Position numbers and translations under genes: made by a program. From Escherichia phage RB16, in the sequence record NC_014467.1: a stretch of DNA of 64,000 bases; one strand, 5' to 3'. How positions within the stretch are numbered: position 1 is the first letter of the stretch; each line of letters starts with the position of its first letter. Shown here piece after piece: positions 8,759 to 64,000 of this stretch. The notes below the pieces were generated by a model. It was given only the letters and a program-made list of their open reading frames with translations. It did no database searches and had not been told where the DNA came from.

Positions 8759-9013
8759 TCAAAAAATATGCGTAAGGTTTCCGGCGTTGTTCGGGTATTC
8801 CACGTAATCGCCACGGAATATGTTTAGATCGGAATCGAACTTAAATCCTTGACCCCTGACATCCTCATGACGGGAAATATAAGAACATCCGTACTTTTGT
8901 AGATCTTCCATGTACATTTCAGTGATGCGTTTTGCTTTGTCCATTCCCCGACCTTCAAATCGGGAACGGCGATAATGTTCCAGCAAAAACGCATATAACT
9001 TTTCGTATGTCAC
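8759..9013 (-). CDS. hypothetical protein (84 aa)
   Basis: ORF track. Confidence 0.4.
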   Translation of the reverse strand: MTYEKLYAFLLEHYRRSRFEGRGMDKAKRITEMYMEDLQKYGCSYISRHEDVRGQGFKFDSDLNIFRGDYVEYPNNAGNLTHIF

Positions 9014-9918
9014 AGAACTTTCCTTATCTGTTTGGCTATTGCCTCGATAACTGGCACGGAAACGGAGTTACCCGCTTGCTTGTATGCTTGTTTTTTACTC
9101 GATGGAATAATAAACGAATCTGGGAAGCCTTGCAAGCGAAAACATTCACGCGGGGTTAATCGTCGTGGGTTCTTCCCGTCCTGCAACACCAGACATTGAA
9201 CGCCGTCCTTGTAATATTGCGCGGTGATGGTTCCTGTGTGCGTAGAATCGGCTGTGACGGCCTGATAACCAAAGCCCTTACCGTTTGCCTTATTTCGTTC
9301 CTTACGCTCTCTAAAGCCTTTCCACGCGTTATCTGATAGAGTGTACGAATCATCAGCATCTTCGAGGATATCACCTACGCGCGTAGGGGTACGCGGGGGA
9401 ACCGGAAACGAAAAGAATACATCATCCAGGAAGCAGACAATGAACACGCGTTCACGTCGCTGGGGTAGTCCGAAATCTTTTGTATTCAGTCGCTGATAGA
9501 ATACGTTGTATCCTTCGGCCTCAAGAAGCCCGTAAATCGTTTTAAACGTCTTTCCCTTGTCATGGGTTAGCAATTCAGGCACGTTCTCAAAGAACAGCAC
9601 ACGGGGCTTTTTAGCGCGTATGATGCGGAGGATTTCAAAGAACACCGTACCGCGAGCATCATCAAATCCCAGTTTCAATCCGGCTTTACTGAATGCCTGA
9701 CACGGGAACCCAGCCAACAGGATATCGTGATCGGGTACTTTGTTTTCATCAATGGCAAACAGATCACCCTGTAGGTTATCGTCGCCCCAGTTTTCAATAT
9801 AGGTTTGCTGTGCGTGTTTGTCGATCTCAGACGTTAAAAGGCATTCGACCCCGCCGAATGCATTATCAAATCCAAATCGAACTCCACCAACGCCAGCGCA
9901 GAGGTCAATTATTTTCAT
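9010..9918 (-). CDS. DNA (cytosine-5)-methyltransferase, Dcm-like
   Basis: C5-MTase motifs in order: LCAGVGG (I), FPCQAFS (IV, catalytic Cys), ENV (VI), QRRERVF (VIII), GNSV (X). Confidence 0.85.
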   Translation of the reverse strand: MKIIDLCAGVGGVRFGFDNAFGGVECLLTSEIDKHAQQTYIENWGDDNLQGDLFAIDENKVPDHDILLAGFPCQAFSKAGLKLGFDDARGTVFFEILRIIRAKKPRVLFFENVPELLTHDKGKTFKTIYGLLEAEGYNVFYQRLNTKDFGLPQRRERVFIVCFLDDVFFSFPVPPRTPTRVGDILEDADDSYTLSDNAWKGFRERKERNKANGKGFGYQAVTADSTHTGTITAQYYKDGVQCLVLQDGKNPRRLTPRECFRLQGFPDSFIIPSSKKQAYKQAGNSVSVPVIEAIAKQIRKVL

Positions 9919-10178: not shown

Positions 10179-10447
10179 CAGTTGCTACCCCACGTATAAA
10201 AATCAAATTTTTCGGTTTGCGCTTCTTCAACACGGATCACGTAATCACTGGTATCGTATTTGTCAGCGGTACGGAATTCAACCGAATACACACGAGCAAA
10301 CACAGCATAAAGCGCTTCGCGGATTTTCTCTGCGATCTCTTCATCGGTCTTATCGATATGCAACGTAAGCATATCGGAAACCACATCTTCAACGCGACGA
10401 ACATCACGCTTATCAATGTAACCAGTGTATAAATTTACTTCTTTCAT
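10178..10447 (-). CDS. hypothetical protein (89 aa)
   Basis: ORF track. Confidence 0.4.
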   Translation of the reverse strand: MKEVNLYTGYIDKRDVRRVEDVVSDMLTLHIDKTDEEIAEKIREALYAVFARVYSVEFRTADKYDTSDYVIRVEEAQTEKFDFYTWGSN

Positions 10448-11430
10448 TTGTAATACCTCATAACATGATCTTTGTACACGAGTTCAATGAAGTTATCCCA
10501 GAACTCGCGATCGACTTCTTTCGGATAGGTAGAGATTGCAGCCAGGCGTTCAACTTCACCCATCACTTCCTCCAGTTTTTCCTGTACTTCGGCAAACGGG
10601 ACATTACCAGCTTTAACCGATTTCAACAGGTCACTCTCAGGAAGAGGATAAACGATATCACCGTGCTTGTAAATCTGTACCAACTGCATACCGCCGCGCA
10701 ATGCGTGACTTAATGCTTTCCAATCGATCCCATTGTTGGCTTCTGCTTGTCGTGCGCGTTCGCCATATTCATCCCAGAGCTTATACACGGATTTCTTCAT
10801 TTCCGCTACGGTGATTGTGAACTGGAATTTACGACCCAGAACTTCGTAGAAATTCTGCATACCACCTTTTTCGCTATAATGCAAAATAGAACGACAGAAT
10901 TCATTGGTCGGTAGTTGGTCTTTGATGTCGCCAACTTTGGTATTAACCAACGATGAAGCGTTTTCATCGTAATGTGCATTATCGGTGTCTTGCAACACGT
11001 CATACACTTCACGCAATGCAGCCAGGCGTGAACCCTTAACGCCATATTTCGCGGCTTGCTTACGAACATAACCGAACAGACCAGTTAACTCCGTGGTGTA
11101 GAAACGCCAGCGGTTAGCGCGGATATACTGCCAGATTTCAGAGTTAGCGATCAGCTTGCTATCATCAGCATGAAGCATATCGAGCGCTACGGTATCACCA
11201 TCACACGCAAGGCTGATGAACTTAGGCAGACTATACAACTGACGGTCTACGTCATCAACGGTGTTTTTAGAGTTCTTATCGCCCGTGCTCGTGTCGATGG
11301 TCTTTGGGGCTTTACCCAGTAAGATATCGCGTGGATGCGGGAGAAAGATCCCTTTATAATCTTTGTCGCTTGTCGGGGTGTTCAGTCCGTACAAAAAACT
11401 TCCAAACACCATTTCAACTACGGTTTTCAT
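10444..11430 (-). CDS. nucleotidyltransferase-fold (Pol-beta superfamily) protein, about 328 aa
   Basis: N-terminal VEMVFGSFLYGLNTPTSDKDYKGIF fits hG[GS]x9-13DhD NTase signature; start placed at MKTVVEMVFGSF. Confidence 0.5.
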   Translation of the reverse strand: MKTVVEMVFGSFLYGLNTPTSDKDYKGIFLPHPRDILLGKAPKTIDTSTGDKNSKNTVDDVDRQLYSLPKFISLACDGDTVALDMLHADDSKLIANSEIWQYIRANRWRFYTTELTGLFGYVRKQAAKYGVKGSRLAALREVYDVLQDTDNAHYDENASSLVNTKVGDIKDQLPTNEFCRSILHYSEKGGMQNFYEVLGRKFQFTITVAEMKKSVYKLWDEYGERARQAEANNGIDWKALSHALRGGMQLVQIYKHGDIVYPLPESDLLKSVKAGNVPFAEVQEKLEEVMGEVERLAAISTYPKEVDREFWDNFIELVYKDHVMRYYK

Positions 11431-11947
11431 AAAATTCTCCAAATAATTCTTTCGCTTTCGCTTCGTATACTACACTAGCTTCTTCTGGCGTGGCAAACCT
11501 ACCCAAAAACATATCTTTGCGGTTATGTTTGATTTTAGCTATCCATTTATCACGAGCATTGTCGAAATAGACCCCCTTATAGCCAGATTTATTGGTTTTC
11601 GGAGTTTTTGCTTTCATCGTGTTCTGCTGTTGCGTTACTTCCTGTAGGTTATCTTTGCCATTACCGTTCCCGACCCCGCGTTTATGGTCAACGATAGCGG
11701 GAAGATACCCGTTAGCAACATAGAAAACAATTCGATGAACATAGTACGACTTGCCGTTATATCCTATTGCAGTGTATCCAAATGAATTCGTACTACCCGC
11801 AATACTTCCTACTGTAGCCCTACTACCCCTGTGAACTTTCCAATAACACAACCCTGTGTCAACATCAACCCGAAGAATTTCTAACAATGAATCTATTTCG
11901 CTGCGTTCATCTTCTAGCGTTCTTTTCCACCGTCCGTGGCATTTCAT
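11414..11947 (-). CDS. HNH homing endonuclease with AP2-type DNA-binding domain
   Basis: YVHRIVFYVANGYLP...VDHKRG...DNLQ (HNH_3-like) followed by SGYKGVYF...KWIAKI...LGRF...EEA (AP2-like). Confidence 0.7.
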   Translation of the reverse strand: MKCHGRWKRTLEDERSEIDSLLEILRVDVDTGLCYWKVHRGSRATVGSIAGSTNSFGYTAIGYNGKSYYVHRIVFYVANGYLPAIVDHKRGVGNGNGKDNLQEVTQQQNTMKAKTPKTNKSGYKGVYFDNARDKWIAKIKHNRKDMFLGRFATPEEASVVYEAKAKELFGEFYENRS

Positions 11948-12336
11948 TCTTCAATTCCCAAGATAGCAGCAATTGCTTTCAGGTTTTCGGTAGTGATTTC
12001 GGGAACATTCACAGTGTATGAATTACCGAACATAGGCTGAATTTTAGCACACAATTCTTTACGATACATCATTTCTTTATAATGTTCTTCACTGCGATAG
12101 ACAGTGTACCCCATCCATCCATCGGTTCGTCCAAATGTGCGGTCAATCTTTTCATTGGTGTACGATTTCGGATCGAAGGTTTCAGAAGTTGACGCATAGA
12201 TGTATTTTCTTGCTACTTTATGCACATACAGTGTGCGCGGTTTTCTGTTCTGTCTTGTATCAGAACGAATACCGCAATCATAAAGGGTATCGCCCACTTT
12301 CACATCAGATAAATTTCTCATTTCATTTTCCAACAC
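11944..12336 (-). CDS. hypothetical protein (130 aa)
   Basis: ORF track. Confidence 0.45.
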   Translation of the reverse strand: MLENEMRNLSDVKVGDTLYDCGIRSDTRQNRKPRTLYVHKVARKYIYASTSETFDPKSYTNEKIDRTFGRTDGWMGYTVYRSEEHYKEMMYRKELCAKIQPMFGNSYTVNVPEITTENLKAIAAILGIEE

Positions 12337-13141: not shown

Positions 13142-13410
13142 AATGATTTCCTCTCAAATTCTTCATCAGATTTCCAGTACACGTTAAAGTTACGGCAATC
13201 ATGATCAGAAGTCAATGTATATTTTTCACTTGTTTTTTCATCGGTGATAACCATCGTTTCATTTTCGATAGAGTCAACACCATACACAAACACTTTATCA
13301 CCGCGCGTATTCAGGAACGCGTCACCTTCTTCAATCAACTGCCAACAGTTCACTGGTAAACCGCCCGTGCTTATCGGACGGCTAACAAGACAGTAAGGGT
13401 GTTTAATCAT
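13138..13410 (-). CDS. hypothetical protein (90 aa)
   Basis: ORF track. Confidence 0.4.
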   Translation of the reverse strand: MIKHPYCLVSRPISTGGLPVNCWQLIEEGDAFLNTRGDKVFVYGVDSIENETMVITDEKTSEKYTLTSDHDCRNFNVYWKSDEEFERKSL

Positions 13411-13601
13411 TTAAATTCTTCCATTGCATAGGAAGTAAGATCTTTGAAATACCTTGCGGTGTTGCCTTCTGGGTTGTTTGTAATCTCCATCAGGATAACA
13501 GCACTATCAACTCCTGCTTTCTTAGCCATGAATGAAAGGGCTTCGGTAGCAATAATCGTTGCTTTCATAACATCAGCTTTAGAAACGTTGATTGTATTCA
13601 T
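13407..13601 (-). CDS. hypothetical protein (64 aa)
   Basis: ORF track; preceded by promoter cassette. Confidence 0.4.
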   Translation of the reverse strand: MNTINVSKADVMKATIIATEALSFMAKKAGVDSAVILMEITNNPEGNTARYFKDLTSYAMEEFK

Positions 13602-13637
13602 TTTTCTTCCTTTTCATTAATCACTTGGTATGTGTGT

Positions 13638-13675
13638 ATAATACAAAAGCCCTCACGAGAACGCAAGGGCTTTTT
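13638..13675 (-). promoter_or_regulatory. terminator-hairpin/promoter cassette (-35 TTGCGT in hairpin, 17-nt spacer, -10 TATTAT)
   Basis: minus strand AGCCCTTGCGTTCTCGTGAGGGCTTTTG TATTAT; terminates NatV transcript and can start the next. Confidence 0.5.
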
Positions 13676-13774
13676 ATTAAATTCCGTATAAATCTGGATT
13701 CACAATAACCGCACATAAAAGATCATCTATATGTGCGGCTTCTTGTTCTAAGGTTTGTTTAGATGAATGTGCTT

Positions 13775-14836
13775 TCAAGCAACCCCCGTAAAGGCGTTTA
13801 CTATCTGGAAATGATCATCGAAGAATTCCCCTTGTCGTTGTACGACCTCATGTAAGGGCATCCAGAACGCCTCTGCTGCATCGTCAGCGCCTCCCATAAT
13901 GCGGGGCAGACTTCCATCATTGTTAGGTTCTAACTTGATGTATTGCGCTACAGTCGGTTTTGAGAAGTGTACGGAACGCTTCGGATGATCAAACAACATC
14001 GAATTGCGAATTGAACCACGGATAACCTTTTCAGGAACCTTGATCCGAACCTCTTCGAGCAATTCACGGATCGCACAATCCAGGAATGTTTCGTTTGCGT
14101 TTTTGTGTCCACCTGGCAGGGCCAACGCGCCTTTACCCGGTGCAAACTTACGACGAATTACCAGAAGGTGATTGTTACACACAACCACGCTATCACCCGT
14201 ACAACAGTTTAACGCGTCGGGGTATGGGTACGCTTTGAACTTCTCCAGTTCATCTTCCCATTTCTCGAACTCGTAGTACAAGCGCCAGAACGTATCGGTC
14301 ATCATCCATCCGTTAAGAGAACCCACGACAGCAGCAGGAACATAACGGGCGATCTTCTCGTCCCATCCATTTTTATGTAAAAATATGGTTGGACGCAGGT
14401 CGGTAGCAGATAAATCTTTGCCGTCAACCTTAACCGGATCAACCGGAACATGAGTCCATCCGAACGCTTTAAGCCAGTACGAATCAGCATCTTTTTCGTA
14501 ACCGTAGATCGCGATGTTATCGCCTTTAGTTTCGTCGATTGCTGTACGAACAGAGGTTTTCCATTTTTCTTCATTGTAAAGGTAATCTGGAATCGGTTTG
14601 AATTGCACACGGGACACATCTTCATATTTGAACTCAGACAGTAACCAGCTTGTAATCATACGTTCCCGTTCGGTTGCTGTTAGCGGGTTTAAAACGTTAG
14701 GGTAAGCATAAGCGGAACCCAGGAGGATATAAACGGCCTTCGACTCTTCAAGTGCTTTACGCACCATTGCCGCATGACCATTATGGAAGGGTTGGAATCT
14801 GCCAATTACGACAGCTTTATCAAATTTGTATTTCAT
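13775..14836 (-). CDS. natV: bifunctional NMN adenylyltransferase / Nudix hydrolase (NatV-like)
   Basis: N-terminal GRFQPFHNGH (HxGH nucleotidyltransferase motif) and C-terminal Nudix box GGHKNANETFLDCAIRELLEEVRIKV; start set at MKYKFDKAVVIGRF. Confidence 0.8.
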   Translation of the reverse strand: MKYKFDKAVVIGRFQPFHNGHAAMVRKALEESKAVYILLGSAYAYPNVLNPLTATERERMITSWLLSEFKYEDVSRVQFKPIPDYLYNEEKWKTSVRTAIDETKGDNIAIYGYEKDADSYWLKAFGWTHVPVDPVKVDGKDLSATDLRPTIFLHKNGWDEKIARYVPAAVVGSLNGWMMTDTFWRLYYEFEKWEDELEKFKAYPYPDALNCCTGDSVVVCNNHLLVIRRKFAPGKGALALPGGHKNANETFLDCAIRELLEEVRIKVPEKVIRGSIRNSMLFDHPKRSVHFSKPTVAQYIKLEPNNDGSLPRIMGGADDAAEAFWMPLHEVVQRQGEFFDDHFQIVNAFTGVA

Positions 14837-14861
14837 AACGTGCTCCACGTTTAAAGGGTAA

Positions 14862-14960
14862 TCATAAAACAGACGCAATAATCAATACACCAAGCAAACC
14901 GCCAATAAAGCCGAAGAATAGCGAAATGAAGATAGATAAGATGATCTGTTTTATGTTCAT
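14862..14960 (-). CDS. possible single-pass membrane micropeptide (32 aa)
   Basis: hand translation MNIKQIILSIFISLFFGFIGGLLGVLIIASVL; lies between SPFH gene and natV. Confidence 0.25.
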   Translation of the reverse strand: MNIKQIILSIFISLFFGFIGGLLGVLIIASVL

Positions 14961-14985
14961 TATAGTATTCTCGTTTTAAGAATCA

Positions 14986-15006
14986 AGCCCCCAAGGAAAG
15001 GGGGCT
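14986..15006 (-). terminator. stem-loop after SPFH gene
   Basis: AGCCCCC-TTTCCTT-GGGGGCT. Confidence 0.4.
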
Positions 15007-15014
15007 TTAAAATC

Positions 15015-15941
15015 TTATTTACGAGAATCGAAAATCACTTTACCAGCGTAATCTGAACCCATGACAGTCTGAGGCACATCACCTTTATAACGGGTAGAGT
15101 AGTTCATCTGTACATCCAGTTCTTTCCAGCGGATCATTTCTGGTGTGATGGTACGTTGCAACACGGCGTTCGCTTCTGCTTCTTTCTTCGCTGCATACAG
15201 TTTAGCGTCTGCATCACGTTCGTTGGCGATCGCATCGTTTTCACGCGCCTGACGATTTGCTTCCGCTTGTTTTACCTGTTGCTGTGAAGTCTGTTCGACT
15301 TTTGCCAGTTCCGCACGAGCGGCGTTAACCTGTTCTTCACGAATTTTCGTGTTAGTTACCTGTTCCATGATAACATCCGGCAGGGTGATATCCTGCAAGA
15401 ATACCTGTTTCACGGTGTAACCGTAAGGACGCGCATACTCTTCGACTTCCTGTTGAATTGCGGTCTGCAACTGGTTCTGGATCTTAGCATCAAACAGATC
15501 CTGTGCTTTTGGAACCGATTTGCCGAACTCGCGAACGGTTGACAGCAGTTTTTCGGTTACATACTTATCCAGTGCCTGTTCCTGGTCTCCCGCGTTGATG
15601 CGGTTGATAGGCGCTTTGTTACCGTCAAATTGCAGCATAACGGTCATATCAACAGTGGATTTAAACTTATCCTGTGAAGGAACCTGCAATTTATCGAACT
15701 TCTTCGCAATGTCTTTCGTGCTGAAAGTATCGAAATCAGCCAGCGGGTTTACGATATGGAAACCAGGCAGTACAGGTTTCGGAGAAACCTTACCCATGAA
15801 GGTCTGAGTTTTGACCGTGCCGTCCTGTACTACTGTAAAGGAGTTCGGAACCAGCCACAGTGCGGCTACTACGCCCAGAGCGATCAGAGTGGTTTTCTTC
15901 GGGTTGTTCAGGATAGTATTCATATTCATAGTATGTCTCAT
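15015..15941 (-). CDS. SPFH/band-7 (stomatin/prohibitin-like) membrane protein
   Basis: N-terminal TM helix TLIALGVVAALWLV followed by PHB-like region and C-terminal Ala/Gln/Glu-rich coiled coil typical of band-7 proteins. Confidence 0.6.
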   Translation of the reverse strand: MRHTMNMNTILNNPKKTTLIALGVVAALWLVPNSFTVVQDGTVKTQTFMGKVSPKPVLPGFHIVNPLADFDTFSTKDIAKKFDKLQVPSQDKFKSTVDMTVMLQFDGNKAPINRINAGDQEQALDKYVTEKLLSTVREFGKSVPKAQDLFDAKIQNQLQTAIQQEVEEYARPYGYTVKQVFLQDITLPDVIMEQVTNTKIREEQVNAARAELAKVEQTSQQQVKQAEANRQARENDAIANERDADAKLYAAKKEAEANAVLQRTITPEMIRWKELDVQMNYSTRYKGDVPQTVMGSDYAGKVIFDSRK

Positions 15942-17209: not shown

Positions 17210-17794
17210 TTAACAGTTCACACCGACTTTATCAAGCACTTTTTCATGATAATGTTTCCGGCATAACGAAACATATTTGTCTTCGGCTCCGATTTCGACT
17301 TGCGCCCCTTCTGTTACGAAGTTGCATTGTGCGTCGATACGGGCGACCGTAGTTGCTTTACGTCCACAGTGACACATTCCCCGCAGTTCGCGGATCTCGT
17401 CAGCCCATGCAAGCAACCAGTAAGAACCCTCGAACAGATTCAACTGAAAGTCGGTACGCAACCCGTAGCACATCACAGGAATTTCGAGTTCATCGACAAC
17501 ACGACACAGATCGAAAACGTTTTTCTTCGAGAGGAATTGCGCTTCATCAACGAAGATGCAAGAGATATTATTCTGGCGCTGGATATCCCAGAACAGATCC
17601 ATACTTGGTGCAATCAGTTCGCAATTTGCATTTAGCCCTACACGAGAAGAAACGGTGTGCGACGTGCGAGTGTCAAGCATAGGCTTGTAGATCACAACGT
17701 TCATACCGCGTTCTTTGTAGTTGTATGCGTCTGTTAACAGTCGCGCACTTTTACCAGCGTTCATTGATGCGTAGTGATAATACAGTTTAGCCAT
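17210..17794 (-). CDS. tk: thymidine kinase
   Basis: Walker A NAGKSARL, FVDEAQF, zinc-binding C-terminus CHCGRKA...SLCRKH; near-colinear with T4 Tk as I recall it. Confidence 0.9.
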   Translation of the reverse strand: MAKLYYHYASMNAGKSARLLTDAYNYKERGMNVVIYKPMLDTRTSHTVSSRVGLNANCELIAPSMDLFWDIQRQNNISCIFVDEAQFLSKKNVFDLCRVVDELEIPVMCYGLRTDFQLNLFEGSYWLLAWADEIRELRGMCHCGRKATTVARIDAQCNFVTEGAQVEIGAEDKYVSLCRKHYHEKVLDKVGVNC

Positions 17795-21251: not shown

Positions 21252-22601
21252 TTAAAAGTTGTCTTCGACGAATGCTGCCAGGCGTCCACGATACACAGTA
21301 TTCAGGATTATGTGACTAGCATGGTCATATTCTTTAAGTTTTTCAACAGCATAGACAAAACCGTTGTTTACAGCAGTGTTTCGCGGGTTGTCAATCTGCT
21401 TAATATTCCCGCATAGTATCAGAAGTGTGTTCTCTCCGCAACGGGAAATAATGGATTTTATTTCATGGTTGCTCAAGTTTTGACATTCGTCAACAATCAG
21501 CACTGAACCTTTACCAGGATCTGGGTGTCCGATAGAACGCCCACGGAAGTAATACAGGCTGGGGAACTGTACAACACCTTTCTCTAACAGCCCTTCGACG
21601 TACTTATCAACTTCCGGTTGATCCTTAAACAGAATGTTCAGGCTTGTAATACATGGTTCAATAGACGGTCGTAATTTTTCGCCCAGTGTACCAGGTAAGA
21701 ACCCGATTTCTCCCGACAGCGGGCTATCCGATTTTACATACATCACATTGGCAAAATGACCCGCACTTACCAGGTGCATAGCACCAGCAACCGCCAGCAT
21801 TGTTTTACCGGAACCAGCCGCGCCCATAATGGTCACTGCATCAATGTTTTTATCCAGAATGGAATCAACGAAAGACGCTTGCAACGCATCGCGAGGTTGA
21901 ATGGTTTTCATCAGCTTGCGTTTCATCAGGTGTTCGTGTTTCAACGGCAACACTTCAAGCTGAAACTCTCCAGCATCCACCACACGCCCGACAACCTCAC
22001 CACCAGACAGAATGTATTGGTTAGGGTAGAAATCTACCTTATAGTCGGCAAACGACGCATAGCTAATCAATGCAATGTCACCATTGTACCCGACAACATC
22101 AACGATGTTCCAGAAGTCGGTCAGTTCAATATAACCGGAATACAGAACATCACTATCTTTCAGTGTGTCATCGCCCGTGTACTGTTCAACAGGGCAACCC
22201 TTAGACATTGCGATCAGCAGCATATTGATATCGCGGGTTACTAAGGTCGCTTTCTCCTGCAAACAGGTAGCGATAATGCGAGCATCTTGCTTATCAAGCG
22301 GGAACTCTTCACCACCGACATAATCGACGATACGCAGAGTAACGCTATCGGGTAAAGCTGGGTTTGTTTGACCCAACGAAACCCCAGTTTGGGTAATTGC
22401 TTCATACTTCTGTCCCAGGACAATTTTAGACAGAAGTCGGATCACTAAACGTGCTTCGCGGGAAGTGTGTTCCTTTGATTTCAGGTGATCCAGTTCTTCC
22501 ATTGTTGCAGCGGTAATGATGATCTCAGTACCAGGGGCAACATAAGAATAGATTGAATATGGGTTCGAGATTAAAACGTTGGTATCTAGAACATATTTCA
22601 T
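21252..22601 (-). CDS. phoH: PhoH-like ATPase with N-terminal PIN domain
   Basis: N-terminal VLDTNVLIS (PIN-like) and Walker A GAAGSGKT, Walker B LIVDECQN; start set at MKYVLDTNV. Confidence 0.8.
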   Translation of the reverse strand: MKYVLDTNVLISNPYSIYSYVAPGTEIIITAATMEELDHLKSKEHTSREARLVIRLLSKIVLGQKYEAITQTGVSLGQTNPALPDSVTLRIVDYVGGEEFPLDKQDARIIATCLQEKATLVTRDINMLLIAMSKGCPVEQYTGDDTLKDSDVLYSGYIELTDFWNIVDVVGYNGDIALISYASFADYKVDFYPNQYILSGGEVVGRVVDAGEFQLEVLPLKHEHLMKRKLMKTIQPRDALQASFVDSILDKNIDAVTIMGAAGSGKTMLAVAGAMHLVSAGHFANVMYVKSDSPLSGEIGFLPGTLGEKLRPSIEPCITSLNILFKDQPEVDKYVEGLLEKGVVQFPSLYYFRGRSIGHPDPGKGSVLIVDECQNLSNHEIKSIISRCGENTLLILCGNIKQIDNPRNTAVNNGFVYAVEKLKEYDHASHIILNTVYRGRLAAFVEDNF

Positions 22602-22655
22602 AGAAGTTTTCCTGTTAATTGCGAGGTACGCGGATTCGCACCCCGCGTAATGCAA

Positions 22656-23123: not shown

Positions 23124-23519
23124 TTACGCAAGTTCAATATGCGGCGCGTCGATGAACTTAGTTTCAATAGGAAGACGCGGATCATTCTTCCAGTTGATAC
23201 CGAAACGCAGTTTCACGCCCAGTTCATCACCAGCTTTTTTCATTGCGTCAAGGACAGGCAACCACACTTTCGGGTTTTTCTGCCAACCTTCCGGCAGTAC
23301 ACTAGGATACAGATCCACAGCATCGCCAGTGATGTGCTTTGATGCCATTGTCTGAGATACACCCTGGCGCACGTATTCGCGCTGTTGCTCTACGGTACGC
23401 AGACCTTCACGTACACCGAAATCAACGGTTGAGAGTTCAAGAGCACGGGTTACAACCTTAACCAGTTCAGGCTTAACGCCTTTCAGGTTGTTCAGGCTTT
23501 TCTGACTAAATTTAAACAT
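23124..23519 (-). CDS. peptidase M15-type L-alanyl-D-glutamate endopeptidase (candidate endolysin)
   Basis: zinc-ligand signature SKHITGDAVD (SxHxxGxAxD) and C-terminal DAPHIE. Confidence 0.65.
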   Translation of the reverse strand: MFKFSQKSLNNLKGVKPELVKVVTRALELSTVDFGVREGLRTVEQQREYVRQGVSQTMASKHITGDAVDLYPSVLPEGWQKNPKVWLPVLDAMKKAGDELGVKLRFGINWKNDPRLPIETKFIDAPHIELA

Positions 23520-23585
23520 ACATACCTCTTTATGAAAATACCCTATGGGCTACACAGGGTATTTACGGTTTAAGAGGCGCAACAG

Positions 23586-24008
23586 TTACATTTCCCAGAG
23601 AGCATCATCCGCTCTACGGATGGTCCATTCTCTGTGCATTTTACGACTTTCTTCTCTGATTTCGAGAGGCAGATTATCGTTGTTGATTTGGTCAACATAT
23701 TCCCGTGCATCTTTTTCGCTAAGGAAAAAAGCATGGAAATTATAATGATTGCGCCCCAATACATTTCGATCCATCAATGAACATCGACTATGATTTTCCC
23801 AGTCATTGTAAATGGTAATACACTTAACAAACAACCCGATTCCACGATGATTATACGGGAATCCAGTGATGATATGTTTACGACCCATTTCTGCTTTAAC
23901 ACCAGTGATGCTAAACACTTCATACAGAATAGCACCAGGTTTAATGTCTTTCAGTTGAGCACGTTTTTCAAAAGCATTCATAATATACACCTCACAATTA
24001 GTTTTCAT
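23586..24008 (-). CDS. hypothetical protein (140 aa)
   Basis: ORF track. Confidence 0.45.
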   Translation of the reverse strand: MKTNCEVYIMNAFEKRAQLKDIKPGAILYEVFSITGVKAEMGRKHIITGFPYNHRGIGLFVKCITIYNDWENHSRCSLMDRNVLGRNHYNFHAFFLSEKDAREYVDQINNDNLPLEIREESRKMHREWTIRRADDALWEM

Positions 24009-24036
24009 ATACAGATTACCATAGTCAGGTTATCTG

Positions 24037-26110: not shown

Positions 26111-26406
26111 ATCATCTTACCATATTTGAGAGTATTCATATAACCGATGATGTATTCAACAACAGCATCGCGTTCTTCTTCACATTCATATCCAGCCCAC
26201 GTTATCGACTGATTATGTGCTAAATGAAACTTAATCGCAGGTTTCCATGTTTTGTTAAGACAAGGAATTTTAGCATCAGTCTCAATCCATGAAACGTGCT
26301 CTACGTTAACAGGATAGTTAATACATTCCACCTCTGCATTACTATTGTATACAAAATGGTCTGCATATAAACGTTTATACGATTTAATTTCTGGTACAAT
26401 AATCAT
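26107..26406 (-). CDS. hypothetical protein (99 aa)
   Basis: ORF track. Confidence 0.4.
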   Translation of the reverse strand: MIIVPEIKSYKRLYADHFVYNSNAEVECINYPVNVEHVSWIETDAKIPCLNKTWKPAIKFHLAHNQSITWAGYECEEERDAVVEYIIGYMNTLKYGKMI

Positions 26407-27557
26407 TTTAACTCCACTGCATAAACATCGGTTTCAGTGGCTTTGTGTACGCGCATATCTTTACCGCATACTGCATAAGCCGGACAGTTACGACAACCGT
26501 TATGATCCTTATTACCGATCAGTTCATTACGGAACTGTTTGGTTTTCGGATGTTCCCAGATATCCTTAATGAAATCGTTCGCTTCCAGGACGTTCAAGCC
26601 TTCTTCCCAACCACCTTCAACCCAGCGTTCGGTAAACGAACAAGGGAAGAACTCGCCTTTCTCGTTGATGTACGAGCTAAACATGGTTGCTTCACAATCT
26701 TCGGCATACTGTTTGTACTGTTCGAAGTTTGGGTGTCCTTCCATCGCTTCAACGAAAGCGGGGGCTGAACAGCTATCGAAACCAAATCCTACACCAGAAT
26801 CAAGGCAATATTCAACAAGTTTTTTGTATTGTTCGCGGGTAACAGTATCCCAGTTCTTACCGCGTCCCTTTTGTTTCAGCCCCAGGAACACAATCGCATT
26901 GACTTGTTTCAGTCGCGGATCATTGCGCACAGCATCAACAACGTTAAACGCATCATCATAGGTTTTAGAGCTAACCATGAAGTGAAGGTTAATTTGCTGT
27001 TGTCCTGCTTCTGCCAGGTTCGCTACCGAGTCGAAAGCGACATCGAAGCCAGCATGTTTATAAACCGATACCGCAACAGCCCCAGCAACAGCCGCTAAAC
27101 GCGCTGCAACGTCTTTTGATACATCGGCAATGGTAAGGTTCGGCACAATGCCTTTAGAACGCGCATAGGCCATCATATCGAACATATCAGGGTTTGTTTG
27201 TCCCTGTGCATCAGCACCGAGGGCGCATTGAGTCAACCAGGGCATTTTATCAATGATAGATTTGAATGATTCCAGATCCATATTGTAGCCGTTAGGGTTG
27301 TTGGACTTGTAACAGAAACCGCACAGCTTACCAGCGGGGCCATTACATTTCGTGGTGATCTCGATATCGAGAATTTCAGGGAAAGGCGCGTATGTCGGAT
27401 CGCTTGCAAAGGTTGTACCCCAACGAGAGAATTCGCCAGTGTCAACATTGAAATTGTAGTTGTACCACTTAGAGCGAGCAAAGCGCATATTACCCTGCTG
27501 GTAAATCATCAGCGAAGGGGCTTTCATTACAGTTTGTGCGCGGTCAATAATATCCAT
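26403..27557 (-). CDS. putative Fe-S / radical-SAM-like enzyme with atypical Cys cluster (about 384 aa)
   Basis: LDIEITTKCNGPAGKLCGFCY (Cx7Cx2C preceded by TxxCN as in radical SAM cores) plus C-terminal CRNCPAYAVCG cluster; start set at MDIIDRAQ. Confidence 0.4.
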   Translation of the reverse strand: MDIIDRAQTVMKAPSLMIYQQGNMRFARSKWYNYNFNVDTGEFSRWGTTFASDPTYAPFPEILDIEITTKCNGPAGKLCGFCYKSNNPNGYNMDLESFKSIIDKMPWLTQCALGADAQGQTNPDMFDMMAYARSKGIVPNLTIADVSKDVAARLAAVAGAVAVSVYKHAGFDVAFDSVANLAEAGQQQINLHFMVSSKTYDDAFNVVDAVRNDPRLKQVNAIVFLGLKQKGRGKNWDTVTREQYKKLVEYCLDSGVGFGFDSCSAPAFVEAMEGHPNFEQYKQYAEDCEATMFSSYINEKGEFFPCSFTERWVEGGWEEGLNVLEANDFIKDIWEHPKTKQFRNELIGNKDHNGCRNCPAYAVCGKDMRVHKATETDVYAVELK

Positions 27558-27567
27558 GATATAGTTC

Positions 27568-27774
27568 TCAAAATTTAACGTGGGATTGGAAAACAGCACG
27601 AGCAAGGTTTTCGCTATCGAACGGGATTGATGTTCCCTGGTCTTTGCTGTCAATGTTAACGCGCCAGAACTCACTAGACCCGTTTTTGGTGGAGTAATGC
27701 ATCAGCGTTACCGTCTTATTCTTTTCCAGGAAGATGCGTTTATCAATCTCTGTTTTTATTTCGTGCTGCATCAT
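27568..27774 (-). CDS. hypothetical protein (68 aa)
   Basis: ORF track. Confidence 0.4.
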   Translation of the reverse strand: MMQHEIKTEIDKRIFLEKNKTVTLMHYSTKNGSSEFWRVNIDSKDQGTSIPFDSENLARAVFQSHVKF

Positions 27775-32176: not shown

Positions 32177-32563
32177 TTATGCCTTTGGGACAACACCGAA
32201 TGCCAGAAGACCCATACGATGATCGTTATCTGCCTCTTCACGGAAGAAATAGTATTGTTCATCGGAAATATCGATTACGGTGATACCCTCTTTCAGATAC
32301 GGCAACAGATATAACGGGATCAGCATCAAATCAGATTCACTGCTCCATTTACGGAAACCCAGATTTTCCATTTCTTCCCGCGTCAAATCATTAGGATCTA
32401 CCGGAAAGAAATTAGGCGATTTCATCAGGCGACCAGGAAGGTCACGAATATTGCTGATTGCGAATTCCGTTCCCCATGAAGTGTATTCAATAGGTTCGGC
32501 GGCACGGGTTGCGGTAGCAACGAGAATCATTTGGCACAGTTGAAAAGTATTTGGATTGCTCAT
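32177..32563 (-). CDS. hypothetical protein (128 aa)
   Basis: ORF track. Confidence 0.45.
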   Translation of the reverse strand: MSNPNTFQLCQMILVATATRAAEPIEYTSWGTEFAISNIRDLPGRLMKSPNFFPVDPNDLTREEMENLGFRKWSSESDLMLIPLYLLPYLKEGITVIDISDEQYYFFREEADNDHRMGLLAFGVVPKA

Positions 32564-32973
32564 GATATAGATCCCACAAGTTTAGTCAGAAGGTGTCCCA
32601 TAGTCTTACGCGCATGATCGCGGATCTGGCTATACGGAACATATTTGAAGTCATCCATTTCAGTAATGGTTCGACCGTTTTTAACGAAGGTTGAAGCGCA
32701 AACACATTTTTCTGCTTCGGGGTAATTATTACCCACATATACGAATAACACAAGCTCTTTTTTACTCGTATAATCAATCAGACCCAGGCTCAACAGTTCG
32801 TGTTGTTCAACTACAACGCCCGTTTCCTCGAAGCATTCACGGATAGCAGCATTGATCGGGGATTCGCCTTTTTCGATATGCCCCTTTGGGATGTCCCAAT
32901 GAGGCGTTTCGGTTGCGTGACCCATTAAAACGCTGCCGTTATTCAGAAAGAGAATACCAGCAGACCGTTCCAT
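32560..32973 (-). CDS. nudE: Nudix hydrolase (NudE-like)
   Basis: Nudix box GHIEKGESPINAAIRECFEETGV (Gx5Ex7REUxEExGU). Confidence 0.8.
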   Translation of the reverse strand: MERSAGILFLNNGSVLMGHATETPHWDIPKGHIEKGESPINAAIRECFEETGVVVEQHELLSLGLIDYTSKKELVLFVYVGNNYPEAEKCVCASTFVKNGRTITEMDDFKYVPYSQIRDHARKTMGHLLTKLVGSIS

Positions 32974-34712: not shown

Positions 34713-35234
34713 TCACGAACTCTCGCCGCGATGTTCGATGTGCTCCGTGATATCCTCAACAGTCTTATCAAGGTCCAGAGATTCAGCATCTTCCTTGATA
34801 ATAGTCAAATCTACAGGCAGTGTCAACAGTCTTTTCACTCCGCTGATATCTTCGATACGAGAATCATACGCAAGGGTAACATGCGGTTTGTAGTTGTCAA
34901 AATCGTAAGTCGCTCCGGCATCCATCGCATCATTGAAACGGCTATGCAGATAATCAGACTCCAGAACACCGACGATAGTGTTACCGTATTTTGTGTCCCA
35001 CTTCTCTACGTCAACCAGTCGGGCAGGTTCAGAGATACCAGAGGCAGGGAACAAATCAACCGTCTTACGGCTATACACAATCGTTGTATGAAGTTTTTCA
35101 GCAGACACCGGATTCTCTACACCCAGAAGTTTTTGCACTTGTGCAAGCGCTTCACAGGAAGCCTGATCGAACTTCGCACACATATAGATCCCCGAATCAA
35201 CTACGGGTTTCGCAACTTCAATAAAACTTTTCAT
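34713..35234 (-). CDS. acb1: 2H phosphoesterase, Acb1/57B-like (anti-CBASS cyclic-oligonucleotide phosphodiesterase candidate)
   Basis: two HxT motifs (KLHTTIVYS and KPHVTLAYD) about 80 aa apart; sits in the T4 57B position next to 57A-1-3. Confidence 0.65.
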   Translation of the reverse strand: MKSFIEVAKPVVDSGIYMCAKFDQASCEALAQVQKLLGVENPVSAEKLHTTIVYSRKTVDLFPASGISEPARLVDVEKWDTKYGNTIVGVLESDYLHSRFNDAMDAGATYDFDNYKPHVTLAYDSRIEDISGVKRLLTLPVDLTIIKEDAESLDLDKTVEDITEHIEHRGESS

Positions 35235-59888: not shown

Positions 59889-60614
59889 ATGGTTGCAAAA
59901 ATCTCTATAGAACAACGAGAACATCAATTAAAAGAACGTTGTGCGGAATTAGAACTATCTTTTGATGGATGGGTAGACCAATCAGCGATCACAAAATATT
60001 CAAAGTTTTATGTTGTTTGCAGTAAAGGACATAGAACAGAAAAACAGATCAAACCATTTGTCAACAAAAGTCGTCCAAACGGATGTTATTTGTGTTCTCC
60101 TAAGATGAAAATATCAAAGGAAAACAGAATCGAGGAAATCAAAACTCTTGCAGATTCAATTGGATATACATTCATAGATTTCGTTGGGGTGTATAAAGAT
60201 GCTCACACAAAAATATCAATGGTTTGCGATAAAGGCCATAATTGGGATGTAAGTATAGTTGCTTTTCTCAATCAAGGTCATCGCTGTAAAAAATGCGCAA
60301 CGTCTGGGTTCAATACGAACAAACCAGCATACGTATACGTACAATCACTATCTGGAAAATTTCTGAAATTTGGGATAACCAACAGAACACCAAAGAAAAG
60401 AATGTGTGCGCAATCAAATAAATCCGTTTATAAACACGAACTGGTTTATCAAAAATTATTCGATAAAGGTATTGATGCAATGAGTATTGAACAGAAGATC
60501 AAACAATCTCTTGTTTGTGGCGTAGTTGATAAATCAGATATGATGGATGGATATACAGAAACAACAGATATATCCAATTACGATAAACTGTTGAATATTA
60601 TAGAAGGAGTATAA
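59889..60614 (+). CDS. T5orf172/GIY-YIG-like domain protein with duplicated zinc-finger modules (free-standing homing-endonuclease-like)
   Basis: two CxKGH...CxxC modules then YVYVQSLSGKFLKFGITNRTPKKR (T5orf172-type GxxKxGxT...R); inserted between genes 14 and 15. Confidence 0.5.
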   Translation: MVAKISIEQREHQLKERCAELELSFDGWVDQSAITKYSKFYVVCSKGHRTEKQIKPFVNKSRPNGCYLCSPKMKISKENRIEEIKTLADSIGYTFIDFVGVYKDAHTKISMVCDKGHNWDVSIVAFLNQGHRCKKCATSGFNTNKPAYVYVQSLSGKFLKFGITNRTPKKRMCAQSNKSVYKHELVYQKLFDKGIDAMSIEQKIKQSLVCGVVDKSDMMDGYTETTDISNYDKLLNIIEGV

Positions 60615-60616
60615 AA

Positions 60617-61434
60617 TTGTTTGGATACTGGTATAATAGTTCGCTGCGTAACTACATTGTTCTTATGGGACAATTGTTTAACCATGTTCAGGTTAAAAGA
60701 GTACGCGGCGATCAAGAAAAATTTATTAAGGTTCCAATTACCTACGCATCGAAAGAGAAATTTCTTGCTTCCATGAATAAACTCAACTATGCGTATAGTC
60801 AGGAAAACGTAGCAAAGACGGAAACCATTTTACCGCGAATGAACCTATCACTGGTCGATCTGCAATATAACGCAATTCGTAAAACCAGCATAGCGGTCAA
60901 CCAAAAAATGACGCAATTGCAATCACCCCGCAAGACGATCACACAGTTTAACCCTGTGCCTTATCGTTTAATTTTTGAACTGGGTGTGTATACGCGATAT
61001 GAAGACGACATGTTTCAGATCGCAGAACAGATTTTACCGTATTTTCAACCACATTTCAACTGCAAGATTACCGAACTGCATAAGAACGAAATCACAGTTG
61101 ACCGAGACATCAAAATCAGTCTCCAGTCGGTTGCACCAGATACAACGTTTGAGGGCGAAGCATCACAGCGCCGACATGTTGAATGGTCTTTCATGTTCGA
61201 ATTGCAGGGTTATCTGTACCCGCCTGTTACTGACGTTAAGGGCGAAATCAGAACAGTATACACGGATTTCTTTGCCAATATGAACCCATTGGATAAAGAT
61301 AACTTTGAATCCGTTGATAGTCAAGCCGATCCGGTAGATCTGCCTTTGCAGGATTACACGGGCGAAGAATATATTCAGACGTATTCGCACGATAAGCCGA
61401 TCCCGTCTGGTGATGAACCTCCTAAGCCGAGGGA

Positions 61435-61438
<4 letters not shown>
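60617..61438 (+). CDS. 15: tail sheath stabiliser / connector protein gp15
   Basis: MFGYWYNSSLRNY... parallels T4 gp15 MFGYFYNSSFRRY...; apparent TTG start at 60617 after AGGAGT. Confidence 0.9.
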
Positions 61439-63781
<2,343 letters not shown>

Positions 63782-63796
63782 AGAGGAAATTCTATA

Positions 63797-64000
63797 ATGG
63801 CTTTACAATCTCCAGGTATTGAAACAAAAGAAACATCGGTACAATCTACCGTTGTTCGAAATTCAACTGGTCGCGCTGCCATTGTTGGTAAATTTTCATG
63901 GGGGCCAGCTTATCAGATCCGTCAGATTTCTAACGAAGTCGAACTGGTAAACTATTTTGGTTCCCCAGACAACCTAACCGCTGATTATTTCATGAGTGCT
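63797..64000 (+). CDS. 18: tail sheath protein gp18 (5' partial, runs off window)
   Basis: MALQSPGIETKETSVQSTVV... parallels T4 gp18 N-terminus. Confidence 0.9.
   Translation, partial: MALQSPGIETKETSVQSTVVRNSTGRAAIVGKFSWGPAYQIRQISNEVELVNYFGSPDNLTADYFMSA

What the first reader, a model, noticed from the sequence alone, without database searches (positions are those of the whole stretch)
13775..14836. NatV-like NMN adenylyltransferase-Nudix fusion: half of a phage NAD+ salvage / NAD+ reconstitution pathway
GRFQPFHNGH (HxGH) plus a complete Nudix box identify a bifunctional NMNAT/ADP-ribose pyrophosphatase, as characterised for vibriophage KVP40 NatV. Such enzymes pair with a nicotinamide phosphoribosyltransferase (NadV/Nampt) and have been implicated in counteracting NAD+-depleting defence. 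No Nampt-sized gene is present in this window, so the partner is either elsewhere in the genome or absent.
Basis: partly seen in the sequence, partly recalled or inferred. Interest (0 to 1): 0.5.

Follow-up and report, generated by a model that had tools for sequence, protein, structure and literature searches.

The report
Phage NMNAT–Nudix NAD-rebuilding enzyme (NatV)
This is an intact copy of a well-known phage enzyme (NatV) that makes NAD+ from nicotinamide mononucleotide; it is ordinary for RB43/Lw1-type T4-like phages, and in every close relative its partner enzyme Nampt lies about 70 kb away, which would be just outside this window.

Summary
Window 13775..14836 (minus strand) encodes a 353-aa protein with an N-terminal NMN adenylyltransferase domain (HNGH, SATDLR) and a C-terminal Nudix domain. 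It aligns end-to-end with the solved NadM-Nudix enzymes 2QJO (E=7e-55) and 2QJT (E=3e-45), and with the characterised KVP40 NatV (41% identity, E=8e-86).

The window comes from a Pseudotevenvirus very close to Escherichia phage Lw1. The protein is 97% identical to Lw1 gp134, which is already annotated as an NMNAT/Nudix bifunctional protein.

- There is no Nampt in the window (tblastn best E=7.5). The two large ORFs are a PIN-PhoH protein and a radical-SAM/SPASM protein.
- Lw1 carries an intact Nampt at 148589-150022, which would lie about 22 kb past the window's right end.
- All 20 nearest natV-bearing phage records have a Nampt, and so do 5/5 long IMG/VR contigs.
- Osterman et al. already list the Lw1 Nampt as "Nmnat-associated" (NARP2).
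- Iyer et al. 2022 state that every NadM phage also has NadV.

This is therefore a routine member of the known NARP2 / NadV-NatV NAD+ salvage pathway. The gene appears to sit in its own early-type transcription unit. Interest is low and the feature is already known.

The parts
13775..14836 (-). natV coding sequence (353 aa plus stop): bifunctional NMN adenylyltransferase / Nudix (ADP-ribose pyrophosphatase-type) protein
   Evidence: ORF. Pfam, NCBIfam and PHROG hits. PDB 2QJO E=7e-55 and 2QJT E=3e-45, both full length. 41% identical to KVP40 NatV. 97% identical to Lw1 gp134.
14327..14836 (-). N-terminal NMNAT (HIGH-type nucleotidyltransferase) domain, about residues 1-170
   Evidence: PF01467 at residues 10-68. 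NCBIfam PRK13793 NMNAT at residues 3-153 and archaeal NMNAT models. PDB archaeal NMNATs 1F9A and 1EJ2.
14774..14785 (-). HxGH motif (HNGH, residues 18-21), the ATP-binding signature of the nucleotidyltransferase
   Evidence: Regex. Invariant in Lw1, KVP40 and VH7D and in 2QJO, 2QJT and 1F9A.
14393..14410 (-). SxTxxR motif (SATDLR, residues 143-148), the second NMNAT signature
   Evidence: Regex. Aligned to SSTAIR in 2QJO and NATEFR in 2QJT. S143, T145 and R148 are invariant among the phage proteins.
13778..14203 (-). C-terminal Nudix hydrolase domain, about residues 212-353
   Evidence: PF00293 at residues 216-340, E=1.8e-14. phrog_1198. Aligned to the Nudix halves of 2QJO and 2QJT.
14042..14110 (-). 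Nudix box GHKNANETFLDCAIRELLEEVRI (residues 243-265), with R264 in place of the canonical G
   Evidence: relaxed regex matches, strict regex fails. The same position is R in 2QJO and N in KVP40 NatV.
14843..14846 (-). Shine-Dalgarno GGAG, 6 nt upstream of the ATG at 14836
   Evidence: Read directly from the sequence.
14959..14986 (-). Sigma-70-type (T4 early-type) promoter-like site, TTGATT-16-TATAAT, about 125 nt upstream of natV
   Evidence: Consensus scan, 10 of 12 matches. This is only a consensus match; the region's count of such sites is not above the shuffle expectation.
14988..15003 (-). Terminator-like hairpin plus T-rich tail, between the upstream SPFH gene and the natV promoter-like site
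13641..13679 (-). Strong hairpin followed by a U-run downstream of natV; a likely intrinsic terminator closing the natV unit
   Evidence: RNA fold gives -20.8 kcal/mol, z=-7.2, with 0 of 200 shuffles as stable. The scan did not report it.
13703..13745 (-). First hairpin in the natV 3' untranslated region (stem CCGCACAU / AUGUGCGG)
   Evidence: RNA fold gives -17.6 kcal/mol, z=-4.9.

Best explanation
The gene is the Pseudotevenvirus orthologue of vibriophage KVP40 natV. It encodes a bifunctional NadM-Nudix enzyme.

The N-terminal domain adenylylates nicotinamide mononucleotide (NMN + ATP -> NAD+ + PPi). The C-terminal Nudix domain hydrolyses ADP-ribose (and possibly NAD(H)) to AMP plus ribose-5-phosphate.

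It is the second enzyme of the phage NadV/NatV salvage route, now called NARP2. A phage Nampt makes NMN from nicotinamide and PRPP, and NatV converts NMN to NAD+. The Nudix half returns ADP-ribose carbon to ribose-5-P, which the host's Prs can turn back into PRPP. The pathway keeps NAD+ available during infection and can override NAD+-depleting defences such as Thoeris, DSR and SIR2-type systems.

The Nampt partner is not in this window. It is expected about 22 kb beyond the right end, in the srd-rnlB ... dam-nrdC-nrdD early cluster, as in Lw1. natV appears to be its own early-type transcription unit: a promoter-like site upstream and hairpins on both sides.

Shown here: the domain architecture, the motifs, the homology, the purifying selection, the absence of Nampt from the window, and the presence of Nampt in all close relatives. 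Inferred: the enzymatic activities, the presence of Nampt in this particular genome, the expression timing, and the counter-defence role.
For: Architecture and motifs.

Homology:
- Full-length to the solved bifunctional enzymes 2QJO (E=7e-55) and 2QJT (E=3e-45).
- 41% identity, E=8e-86, to KVP40 NatV (KVP40.0162).
- The invariant columns include every catalytic motif.

Purifying selection against Lw1: 44 synonymous versus 12 non-synonymous codon differences.

The window is Lw1-like: 97% nucleotide identity across natV..tk and 99.5% at the right end.

The Nampt partner in relatives:
- Present in Lw1 at 148589-150022, and it passes the curated cutoff of the NadV-type model PRK09198 (460 bits against 405).
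- Also present in RB43, IME-CF2, Miller, CfP1, GAP161 and others at a constant distance of about 70-71 kb.
- 20 of 20 nearest natV records appear in the Nampt list.
- 5 of 5 long IMG/VR contigs carry both genes.

Literature:
- The KVP40 Nampt+Nmnat pair abolishes Thoeris and DSR2 defence and raises NAD+; 94% of phages with this Nampt also have Nmnat (bioRxiv 10.1101/2024.02.11.579819).
- The Lw1 Nampt is listed as 'Nmnat-associated' in that paper's supplement.
- All 50 NatV phages then known also had nadV (PMC7139368 citing Lee et al. 2017).

In KVP40 itself, natV also lies between an nrdC.11 homologue and tk, and nadV is not within 14 kb. Separation of the two genes is therefore normal for this pathway.
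Against: The rest of this phage's genome is not available, so Nampt presence is inferred and not observed. The exact protein and an exact DNA word from the window were not found in the public collections.

The score against the NCBIfam PRK05379 equivalog sub-models is 259 bits, below their curated cutoffs of 354-449. The protein is therefore a diverged phage branch, not a member of those bacterial sub-clades.

No enzymatic or infection data exist for any Pseudotevenvirus NatV. The substrate range of the Nudix half is extrapolated from homologues that are 40% identical or less.

The promoter-like site is only a consensus match, and the number of such sites in the region is not above the shuffle expectation.
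Confidence: 0.85

Rival explanations
1. The pathway is housekeeping rather than counter-defence. The NadV/NatV pair is an auxiliary metabolic module that raises NAD+ for the phage's own needs, such as NAD+-consuming ADP-ribosyltransferases, NAD+-dependent host ligase and redox reactions supporting nucleotide synthesis. Defence evasion would be incidental.
For: NARP2 raises NAD+ even in cells without any defence system. Before the defence link, the pathway was described simply as NAD+ salvage or NAD+ synthesis. natV sits among nucleotide-metabolism and early genes (tk, nrdC.11 homologue) rather than in an obvious anti-defence island.
Against: Expression of the KVP40 pair abolishes Thoeris and DSR2 defence, and knock-in rescues a sensitive phage. 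The two roles are not mutually exclusive, so this is a difference of emphasis and not of mechanism.
Confidence: 0.1
2. NatV is an orphan in this genome. This phage has lost or never had Nampt, and NatV works alone, converting host-derived NMN (for example from NAD+-dependent ligase turnover or nicotinamide riboside salvage) into NAD+ and clearing ADP-ribose.
For: No Nampt is present in the 64-kb window. The source genome could not be retrieved. The accessory regions of the window are mosaic relative to Lw1.
Against: Every close relative examined carries Nampt at a fixed position that lies outside the window. Surveys report that all NadM/NatV phages have NadV. The window is 99.5% identical to Lw1 at the end nearest the expected Nampt locus.
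Confidence: 0.03
3. The Nudix half is the main functional part. It would destroy ADP-ribose-derived immune signals (such as Thoeris gcADPR-type molecules) or remove NAD caps from RNA, with the NMNAT half secondary.
For: The Nudix domain is intact and strongly conserved, including the FDxPxRS and DDA..W blocks. Phages are known to degrade or sequester immune signalling nucleotides (the discussion in the NARP3 paper lists Tad1, Acb1 and Apyc1).
Against: No evidence supports such substrates in this family. The fusion with NMNAT and the strict co-occurrence with Nampt point to NAD+ metabolism. The phage also carries a separate stand-alone NudE-type Nudix gene at 32560..32973.
Confidence: 0.02

Closest known systems
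Escherichia phage Lw1 gp134 (AGJ71542.1), with orthologues in RB43, Miller, CfP1, IME-CF2 and other Pseudotevenvirus phages
   Same: It is 97% identical in protein and 94.7% in DNA. The genomic position is the same, between the SPFH 'lipoprotein' gene and small conserved ORFs, in the nrdC.11 ... rI-tk interval. It is already annotated as 'putative bifunctional protein NMN adenylyltransferase/NUDIX hydrolase'.
   Different: There are 12 amino-acid differences, 8 of them in the last 26 codons. The window protein is one residue longer. The 3' flank (window 13399..13802) is replaced relative to Lw1.
Vibrio phage KVP40 NatV (KVP40.0162, AAQ64231.1), the biochemically characterised phage NMNAT/Nudix enzyme and the Nmnat of NARP2
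   Same: The two-domain architecture and length are the same (353 versus 341 aa). Identity is 41% end to end, E=8e-86. The HNGH, SATDxR, Nudix box and FDxPxRS motifs are identical. Both genes lie between an nrdC.11 homologue and tk, and both are physically separate from nadV.
   Different: The proteins are 59% divergent. The phage genus and host differ (Schizotequatrovirus on Vibrio versus Pseudotevenvirus on Enterobacteriaceae). The window protein itself has no experimental data.
Bacterial NadM-Nudix enzymes: Synechocystis slr0787 (PDB 2QJO) and Francisella tularensis NadM-Nudix (PDB 2QJT, 2R5W)
   Same: Collinear full-length homology, E=7e-55 and 3e-45. The catalytic motifs match, including the non-canonical R at the end of the Nudix box in 2QJO.
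   Different: These are cellular enzymes. The window protein scores below the curated cutoffs of all seven NCBIfam PRK05379 bacterial sub-models.
NARP3 NadR-like enzyme Bas30_86, paired with the PnuC-like transporter Bas30_87 (Sci Adv 2026, PMC13464706)
   Same: It is also a phage-encoded NMNAT that rebuilds NAD+ to defeat NAD+-depleting defence in phages of Enterobacteriaceae.
   Different: There the NMNAT is fused to a ribosylnicotinamide kinase domain and paired with an adjacent transporter, and the substrate is imported nicotinamide riboside. Here the fusion partner is a Nudix domain. NadR models match only the NMNAT part (residues 8-154, well below cutoff), and no transporter gene is adjacent.

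Membership tests
NadM-Nudix / phage NatV bifunctional NMNAT-ADPR pyrophosphatase (phrog_395; PDB 2QJO, 2QJT; KVP40 NatV) | N-terminal HIGH-type nucleotidyltransferase domain with the (H/T)xGH motif | tested here: met
   PF01467 E=1.9e-8, above the gathering score. HNGH at residues 18-21, aligned to the HLGH/HKGH motifs of the solved enzymes.
NadM-Nudix / phage NatV bifunctional NMNAT-ADPR pyrophosphatase (phrog_395; PDB 2QJO, 2QJT; KVP40 NatV) | Second NMNAT signature, SxTxxR | tested here: met
   SATDLR at residues 143-148, aligned with SSTAIR in 2QJO and NATEFR in 2QJT. Invariant in the phage orthologues.
NadM-Nudix / phage NatV bifunctional NMNAT-ADPR pyrophosphatase (phrog_395; PDB 2QJO, 2QJT; KVP40 NatV) | C-terminal Nudix domain with the catalytic Nudix box (G-x5-E-x7-REUxEExGU) | tested here: met
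   PF00293 E=1.8e-14. The box lies at residues 243-265 and all Glu/Arg positions are present. The final G is R264, as in 2QJO, and is N in KVP40 NatV, so the family itself departs from the generic consensus at this position.
NadM-Nudix / phage NatV bifunctional NMNAT-ADPR pyrophosphatase (phrog_395; PDB 2QJO, 2QJT; KVP40 NatV) | Collinear full-length homology to characterised members | tested here: met
   2QJO: query 2-350 against chain 4-338, E=7e-55. 2QJT: query 4-347 against chain 6-342, E=3e-45. KVP40 NatV: 41% identity, E=8e-86. phrog_395: residues 1-351 against profile 7-372 of 373, E=1e-98.
NadM-Nudix / phage NatV bifunctional NMNAT-ADPR pyrophosphatase (phrog_395; PDB 2QJO, 2QJT; KVP40 NatV) | NMN adenylyltransferase and ADP-ribose pyrophosphatase activities | not testable with these tools
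   This needs enzyme assays. It is inferred from motif conservation only.
NCBIfam PRK05379 equivalog sub-models (bacterial bifunctional NMNAT/Nudix clades) | Whole-protein score at or above the curated cutoff | tested here: not met
   The best score is 259.4 bits against a cutoff of 397; all seven sub-models fall below their cutoffs of 354-449. The alignment is still full length. I therefore file the protein in the broader NadM-Nudix/NatV family (phage branch) and not in any of these bacterial sub-clades.
NARP2 (phage Nampt + Nmnat NAD+ reconstitution pathway; Osterman et al.) | Nmnat homologous to KVP40 NatV | tested here: met
   (E=8e-86, full length).
NARP2 (phage Nampt + Nmnat NAD+ reconstitution pathway; Osterman et al.) | A KVP40-type Nampt encoded in the same phage genome | tested here: inconclusive
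   It is absent from the 64-kb window. In Lw1 the locus lies about 22 kb beyond the window's end. It is present in 20 of 20 nearest records and 5 of 5 long IMG/VR contigs. The source genome could not be retrieved.
NARP2 (phage Nampt + Nmnat NAD+ reconstitution pathway; Osterman et al.) | Restores NAD+ and overcomes NAD+-depleting defence systems | not testable with these tools
   This has been shown only for the KVP40 genes.
NARP3 (NadR-like RNK-NMNAT + PnuC-like transporter) | NMNAT fused to a ribosylnicotinamide kinase domain, with an adjacent PnuC transporter gene | tested here: not met
   The C-terminal half is Nudix, not RNK. NadR models match only residues 6-154, at 35-45 bits against cutoffs of 201-341. 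The flanking ORFs have no transporter hits.
NARP1 (Adps + Namat) | Prs-like ADPR diphosphokinase next to a Namat (Nampt-homologous) gene | tested here: not met
   No Nampt/Namat-like sequence exists anywhere in the window. Osterman et al. found no phage carrying both NARP1 and NARP2. Adps itself was not searched for separately.

The most novel reading that the evidence does not exclude
The most novel reading not excluded is that the Nudix half of NatV in these Enterobacteriaceae phages has a second, direct anti-defence activity. It might hydrolyse ADP-ribose-derived immune signals or ADPR-based second messengers in addition to recycling ADP-ribose. Alternatively, this particular phage may have lost Nampt, so that NatV acts as a stand-alone module on host NMN. 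Neither reading has positive support here.
Probability: 0.05. Interest if true: 0.45.

Novelty: already known. Interest (0 to 1): 0.12.

Why it matters
The finding adds nothing new biologically. It is a correctly recognised copy of the natV half of the NadV/NatV (NARP2) NAD+ salvage pathway, in a phage group where the pair is already annotated and already catalogued.

Its practical value is for annotation and phage-therapy genomics. An RB43/Lw1-type phage carrying natV should be expected to carry nadV as well, and to be comparatively resistant to NAD+-depleting defences (Thoeris type I, DSR1/2, SIR2-HerA) in Enterobacteriaceae.

One point is worth remembering for window-based scans: the two genes of this pathway are normally tens of kilobases apart in T4-like genomes. 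Absence of the partner from a 64-kb window therefore says nothing about absence from the genome.

Tried and rejected
Leads that were tested and rejected:
1. I tested the two largest same-strand ORFs as possible Nampt genes. 21252..22655 is a PIN-PhoH protein and 26403..27674 is a SPASM/radical-SAM protein.
2. A six-frame tblastn of a Pseudotevenvirus Nampt against the whole window found only noise (best E=7.5).
3. I scanned the small ORFs flanking natV for NADAR, macro, PnuC or other NAD-linked domains. They are conserved phage families of unknown function only.
4. NARP3 (NadR+PnuC) was considered and rejected on domain architecture.

Attempts that led nowhere:
5. I tried to recover the source genome so that Nampt could be observed directly. 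The exact-protein look-up found no record, and an exact 34-mer from the window-specific 3' end had no hit in IMG/VR.
6. The primary KVP40 paper (Lee, Li & Miller 2017) and the NadM-Nudix structure paper (Huang et al. 2008) are not held. Their content is cited only through secondary sources or marked as my own knowledge.
7. The first 50 kb of KVP40 does not contain natV. I located it through the VH7D orthologue.
8. Two sandbox scripts failed because locus L002 was not visible there, so I pasted the sequence in instead. Two family scans failed on a wrong coordinate for the 32-aa ORF and were rerun.

All conclusions rest on the annotated phage hits and on the IME-CF2 and Lw1 Nampt sequences taken from the records.

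I did not run a structure prediction, because sequence homology to two solved full-length structures made it unnecessary.
Full report
OBSERVATION

The ORF finder lists a minus-strand ORF at 13775..14878 that begins at a TTG. That ATG is preceded by GGAG with a 6-nt spacer, and the Lw1 orthologue is annotated from the same ATG. It is therefore the likely start, giving 353 aa.

A regular-expression check found four motifs:
- HNGH at residues 18-21, inside the quoted GRFQPFHNGH.
- SATDLR at 143-148.
- A Nudix box at 243-265 (GHKNANETFLDCAIRELLEEVRI).
- A conserved FDHPKRS block at 282-288.

The strict Nudix consensus fails only at the penultimate position, where R264 replaces G. The solved homologue 2QJO has the same R and KVP40 NatV has N. 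This is a property of the family and not a lesion.

Family scans agree with the two-domain reading:
- Pfam gives NUDIX (E=1.8e-14) and CTP_transf_like (E=1.9e-8), both above gathering score.
- NCBIfam gives full-length matches to the PRK05379 'bifunctional nicotinamide-nucleotide adenylyltransferase/Nudix' models (E=5e-77). These are below the curated equivalog cutoffs (259 bits against 397).
- PHROGs gives phrog_395 at E=1e-98 over the whole length.

WHAT IT IS

Against the Protein Data Bank, the protein aligns end-to-end with the two solved bifunctional NMNAT/ADP-ribose pyrophosphatases: Synechocystis slr0787 (2QJO, E=7e-55) and Francisella NadM-Nudix (2QJT/2R5W, E=3e-45). The N-terminal part alone also matches archaeal NMNATs.

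I located the experimentally characterised phage enzyme, KVP40 NatV, at AY283928.2 94507-95532 (KVP40.0162) through its VH7D orthologue. A BLASTP comparison gives 41% identity over the full length, E=8e-86. In a four-sequence alignment every catalytic motif is invariant.

Compared with Lw1, the gene shows 44 synonymous and 12 non-synonymous codon differences, which indicates purifying selection. Eight of the 12 non-synonymous changes fall in the last 26 codons. That is exactly where nucleotide similarity to Lw1 stops (window 13803), so a mosaic junction lies at the 3' end of the gene.

WHERE THE WINDOW COMES FROM

Megablast of the gene against 50,697 phage records finds 137 records, all T4-like phages of Enterobacteriaceae. 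The best is Escherichia phage Lw1 (Pseudotevenvirus) at 94.7%.

The natV-to-tk stretch is 97% identical to Lw1. The right end of the window (60500-64000; terminase and tail sheath genes) is 99.5% identical and maps to Lw1 123058-126558. The window thus corresponds to roughly Lw1 63.0-126.6 kb.

Lw1 gp134 is already annotated as 'putative bifunctional protein NMN adenylyltransferase/NUDIX hydrolase'. Other relatives carry similar names.

THE PARTNER GENE

That is not literally true. ORFs of 467 aa (21252..22655) and 423 aa (26403..27674) lie on the same strand, but they are a PIN-PhoH protein and a SPASM/radical-SAM protein.

To test the point properly, I probed the phage collection with a Nampt sequence. 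This showed that Pseudotevenvirus phages such as IME-CF2 carry an annotated nicotinamide phosphoribosyltransferase far from natV. Using that phage protein as the query gave three results:
- A six-frame tblastn against the window returns only noise (best E=7.5).
- Lw1 has a 96%-identical homologue at 148589-150019. RB43, Miller, CfP1, GAP161 and dozens more have it too.
- The Lw1 protein passes the curated cutoff of the NadV-type NCBIfam model PRK09198 (460 bits against 405).

The distance from natV to Nampt is 70.8 kb in Lw1 and about 70-71 kb in RB43, Miller and CfP1. The gene should therefore lie about 22 kb beyond window position 64000, in the srd-rnlB ... dam-nrdC-nrdD early cluster.

Co-occurrence evidence is consistent:
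- All 20 records listed as nearest natV hits also appear in the Nampt list.
- In IMG/VR, all five long contigs whose NatV is at least 86% identical to the window's also hold the Nampt, including two metagenome-derived contigs.
- In the phage collection, 175 records have NatV at 60% identity or more, and 178 have the Pseudotevenvirus-type Nampt at 60% or more.

I could not retrieve the source genome itself. Presence of Nampt in this particular phage remains an inference, which I put at about 95%.

HOW IT MOST LIKELY WORKS

Established knowledge of the NadM-Nudix family and of KVP40 NadV/NatV comes from Lee, Li & Miller 2017 (as reported in PMC7139368) and from Osterman et al.. It gives the following scheme:
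- The phage Nampt condenses nicotinamide with PRPP to form NMN.
- The NatV N-terminal domain adenylylates NMN to NAD+.
- The NatV Nudix domain hydrolyses ADP-ribose to AMP and ribose-5-phosphate, which the host's Prs can convert back to PRPP. This last step is from my own knowledge of the family.

Nicotinamide and ADP-ribose are exactly the products of the TIR, SIR2 and SEFIR NADase effectors. Osterman et al. showed that the KVP40 pair abolishes type I Thoeris and DSR2 defence and raises NAD+, and they named it NARP2. They report that 94% of phages with this Nampt also encode the Nmnat, and that NARP2 occurs in about 1.1% of phages. My count of 435 NatV-positive records out of 50,697 (0.9%) is consistent with that figure.

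Their supplementary table lists the Lw1 Nampt (KC801932_00235) as 'Nmnat-associated'. Iyer et al. [quoted passage not shown]

In KVP40 itself, natV lies between an nrdC.11 homologue and tk, and nadV is not within 14 kb. The window shows the same relative placement: nrdC.11-like at 10444..11442, natV, then tk at 17210..17794. Dispersed genes are the norm for this pathway in T4-like genomes.

LOCAL ANATOMY

- A terminator-like hairpin (15003..14988) follows the upstream SPFH gene.
- A sigma-70-type promoter-like site, TTGATT-16-TATAAT (14986..14959), comes next.
- Downstream of the natV stop codon there are two stable hairpins. The first gives -17.6 kcal/mol, z=-4.9. The second, followed by a U-run, gives -20.8 kcal/mol, z=-7.2.

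I infer a self-contained, early-type transcription unit. This is an inference from consensus matches and folding only.

The flanking ORFs have no NAD-related domains.

RIVALS

- Housekeeping NAD+ supply rather than counter-defence. This is compatible with the same mechanism, and NARP2 does raise NAD+ without any defence system present.
- An orphan NatV without Nampt in this genome. This is unlikely given.
- A Nudix-centred role in degrading immune signals or NAD caps. There is no positive evidence for it.
- NARP3 (NadR-like RNK-NMNAT plus PnuC). This is excluded by domain architecture.

VERDICT

The feature is already known: it is a 97%-identical orthologue of an annotated gene, in a phage whose NadV/NatV pair is already catalogued as NARP2. 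Interest is low.

Noticed in passing
window 11414..11947 (-): This 177-aa HNH_3 + AP2-domain homing-endonuclease-like ORF (phrog_99, E=5e-58) sits just after the nrdC.11/RlaP-like gene. Window 11393-12277 has no megablast match in the corresponding Lw1 region, where a different 132-aa ORF sits, so this looks like a mobile-endonuclease insertion or replacement.
   Followed up: partly
window 13399..13802: The 3' flank of natV has no megablast match to Lw1. It includes a 64-aa ORF at 13407..13601 (phrog_14073). The break coincides with a cluster of 8 amino-acid changes in the last 26 codons of natV, so a recombination (mosaic) junction lies inside the gene's 3' end.
   Followed up: partly
window 14862..14960 (-): A 32-aa strongly hydrophobic ORF (MNIKQIILSIFISLFFGFIGGLLGVLIIASVL) lies between the SPFH gene and natV. 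Its ATG overlaps the -10 hexamer of the promoter-like site, so it may not be translated from that transcript. It has a weak, sub-threshold Pfam resemblance to a holin family (E=0.012) and is not annotated in Lw1.
   Followed up: partly
window 15015..15941 (-): The gene immediately upstream of natV encodes an SPFH/Band-7 domain protein (PF01145, E=2e-15; phrog_200 'lipoprotein') with an N-terminal hydrophobic segment. It is conserved in Lw1 (gp135). Its function in a T4-like phage is unclear.
   Followed up: no
window 21252..22655 (-): This is the only Nampt-sized ORF on the natV strand. It is a PIN-domain + PhoH-like ATPase fusion (PF13638 and PF02562).
   Followed up: partly
window 26403..27674 (-): This 423-aa protein has a SPASM iron-sulfur domain. 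The Lw1 orthologue is annotated as a putative radical SAM protein. The substrate is unknown.
   Followed up: no
window 32560..32973 (-): A second, stand-alone Nudix hydrolase (137 aa) carries a fully canonical Nudix box (GHIEKGESPINAAIRECFEETGV). It corresponds to the T4 NudE-type gene annotated in Lw1 (gp177). The phage therefore has two Nudix enzymes.
   Followed up: partly
window 34713..35234 (-): This 173-aa ORF has two H-x-T-x motifs (HTTIVY, HVTLAY), typical of 2H phosphoesterases and LigT-like enzymes. By position it corresponds to Lw1 gp186 (gp57B, 'RNA ligase' in RefSeq). The motifs were seen by eye only.
   Followed up: no
window 9010..9918 (-) and 10444..11442 (-): A C-5 cytosine DNA methyltransferase (PF00145, E=1e-93) and an RlaP/nrdC.11-type nucleotidyltransferase (PF10127) lie a few kilobases downstream of natV on its coding strand.
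   Followed up: no
L003 (KVP40 NC_005083.2) 23288..24028: KVP40, the reference NARP2 phage, also encodes a Sir2-family NAD-dependent deacetylase/ADP-ribosylase homologue (KVP40.0043). This is an NAD+-consuming enzyme on the phage side. No counterpart was looked for in the window.
   Followed up: no
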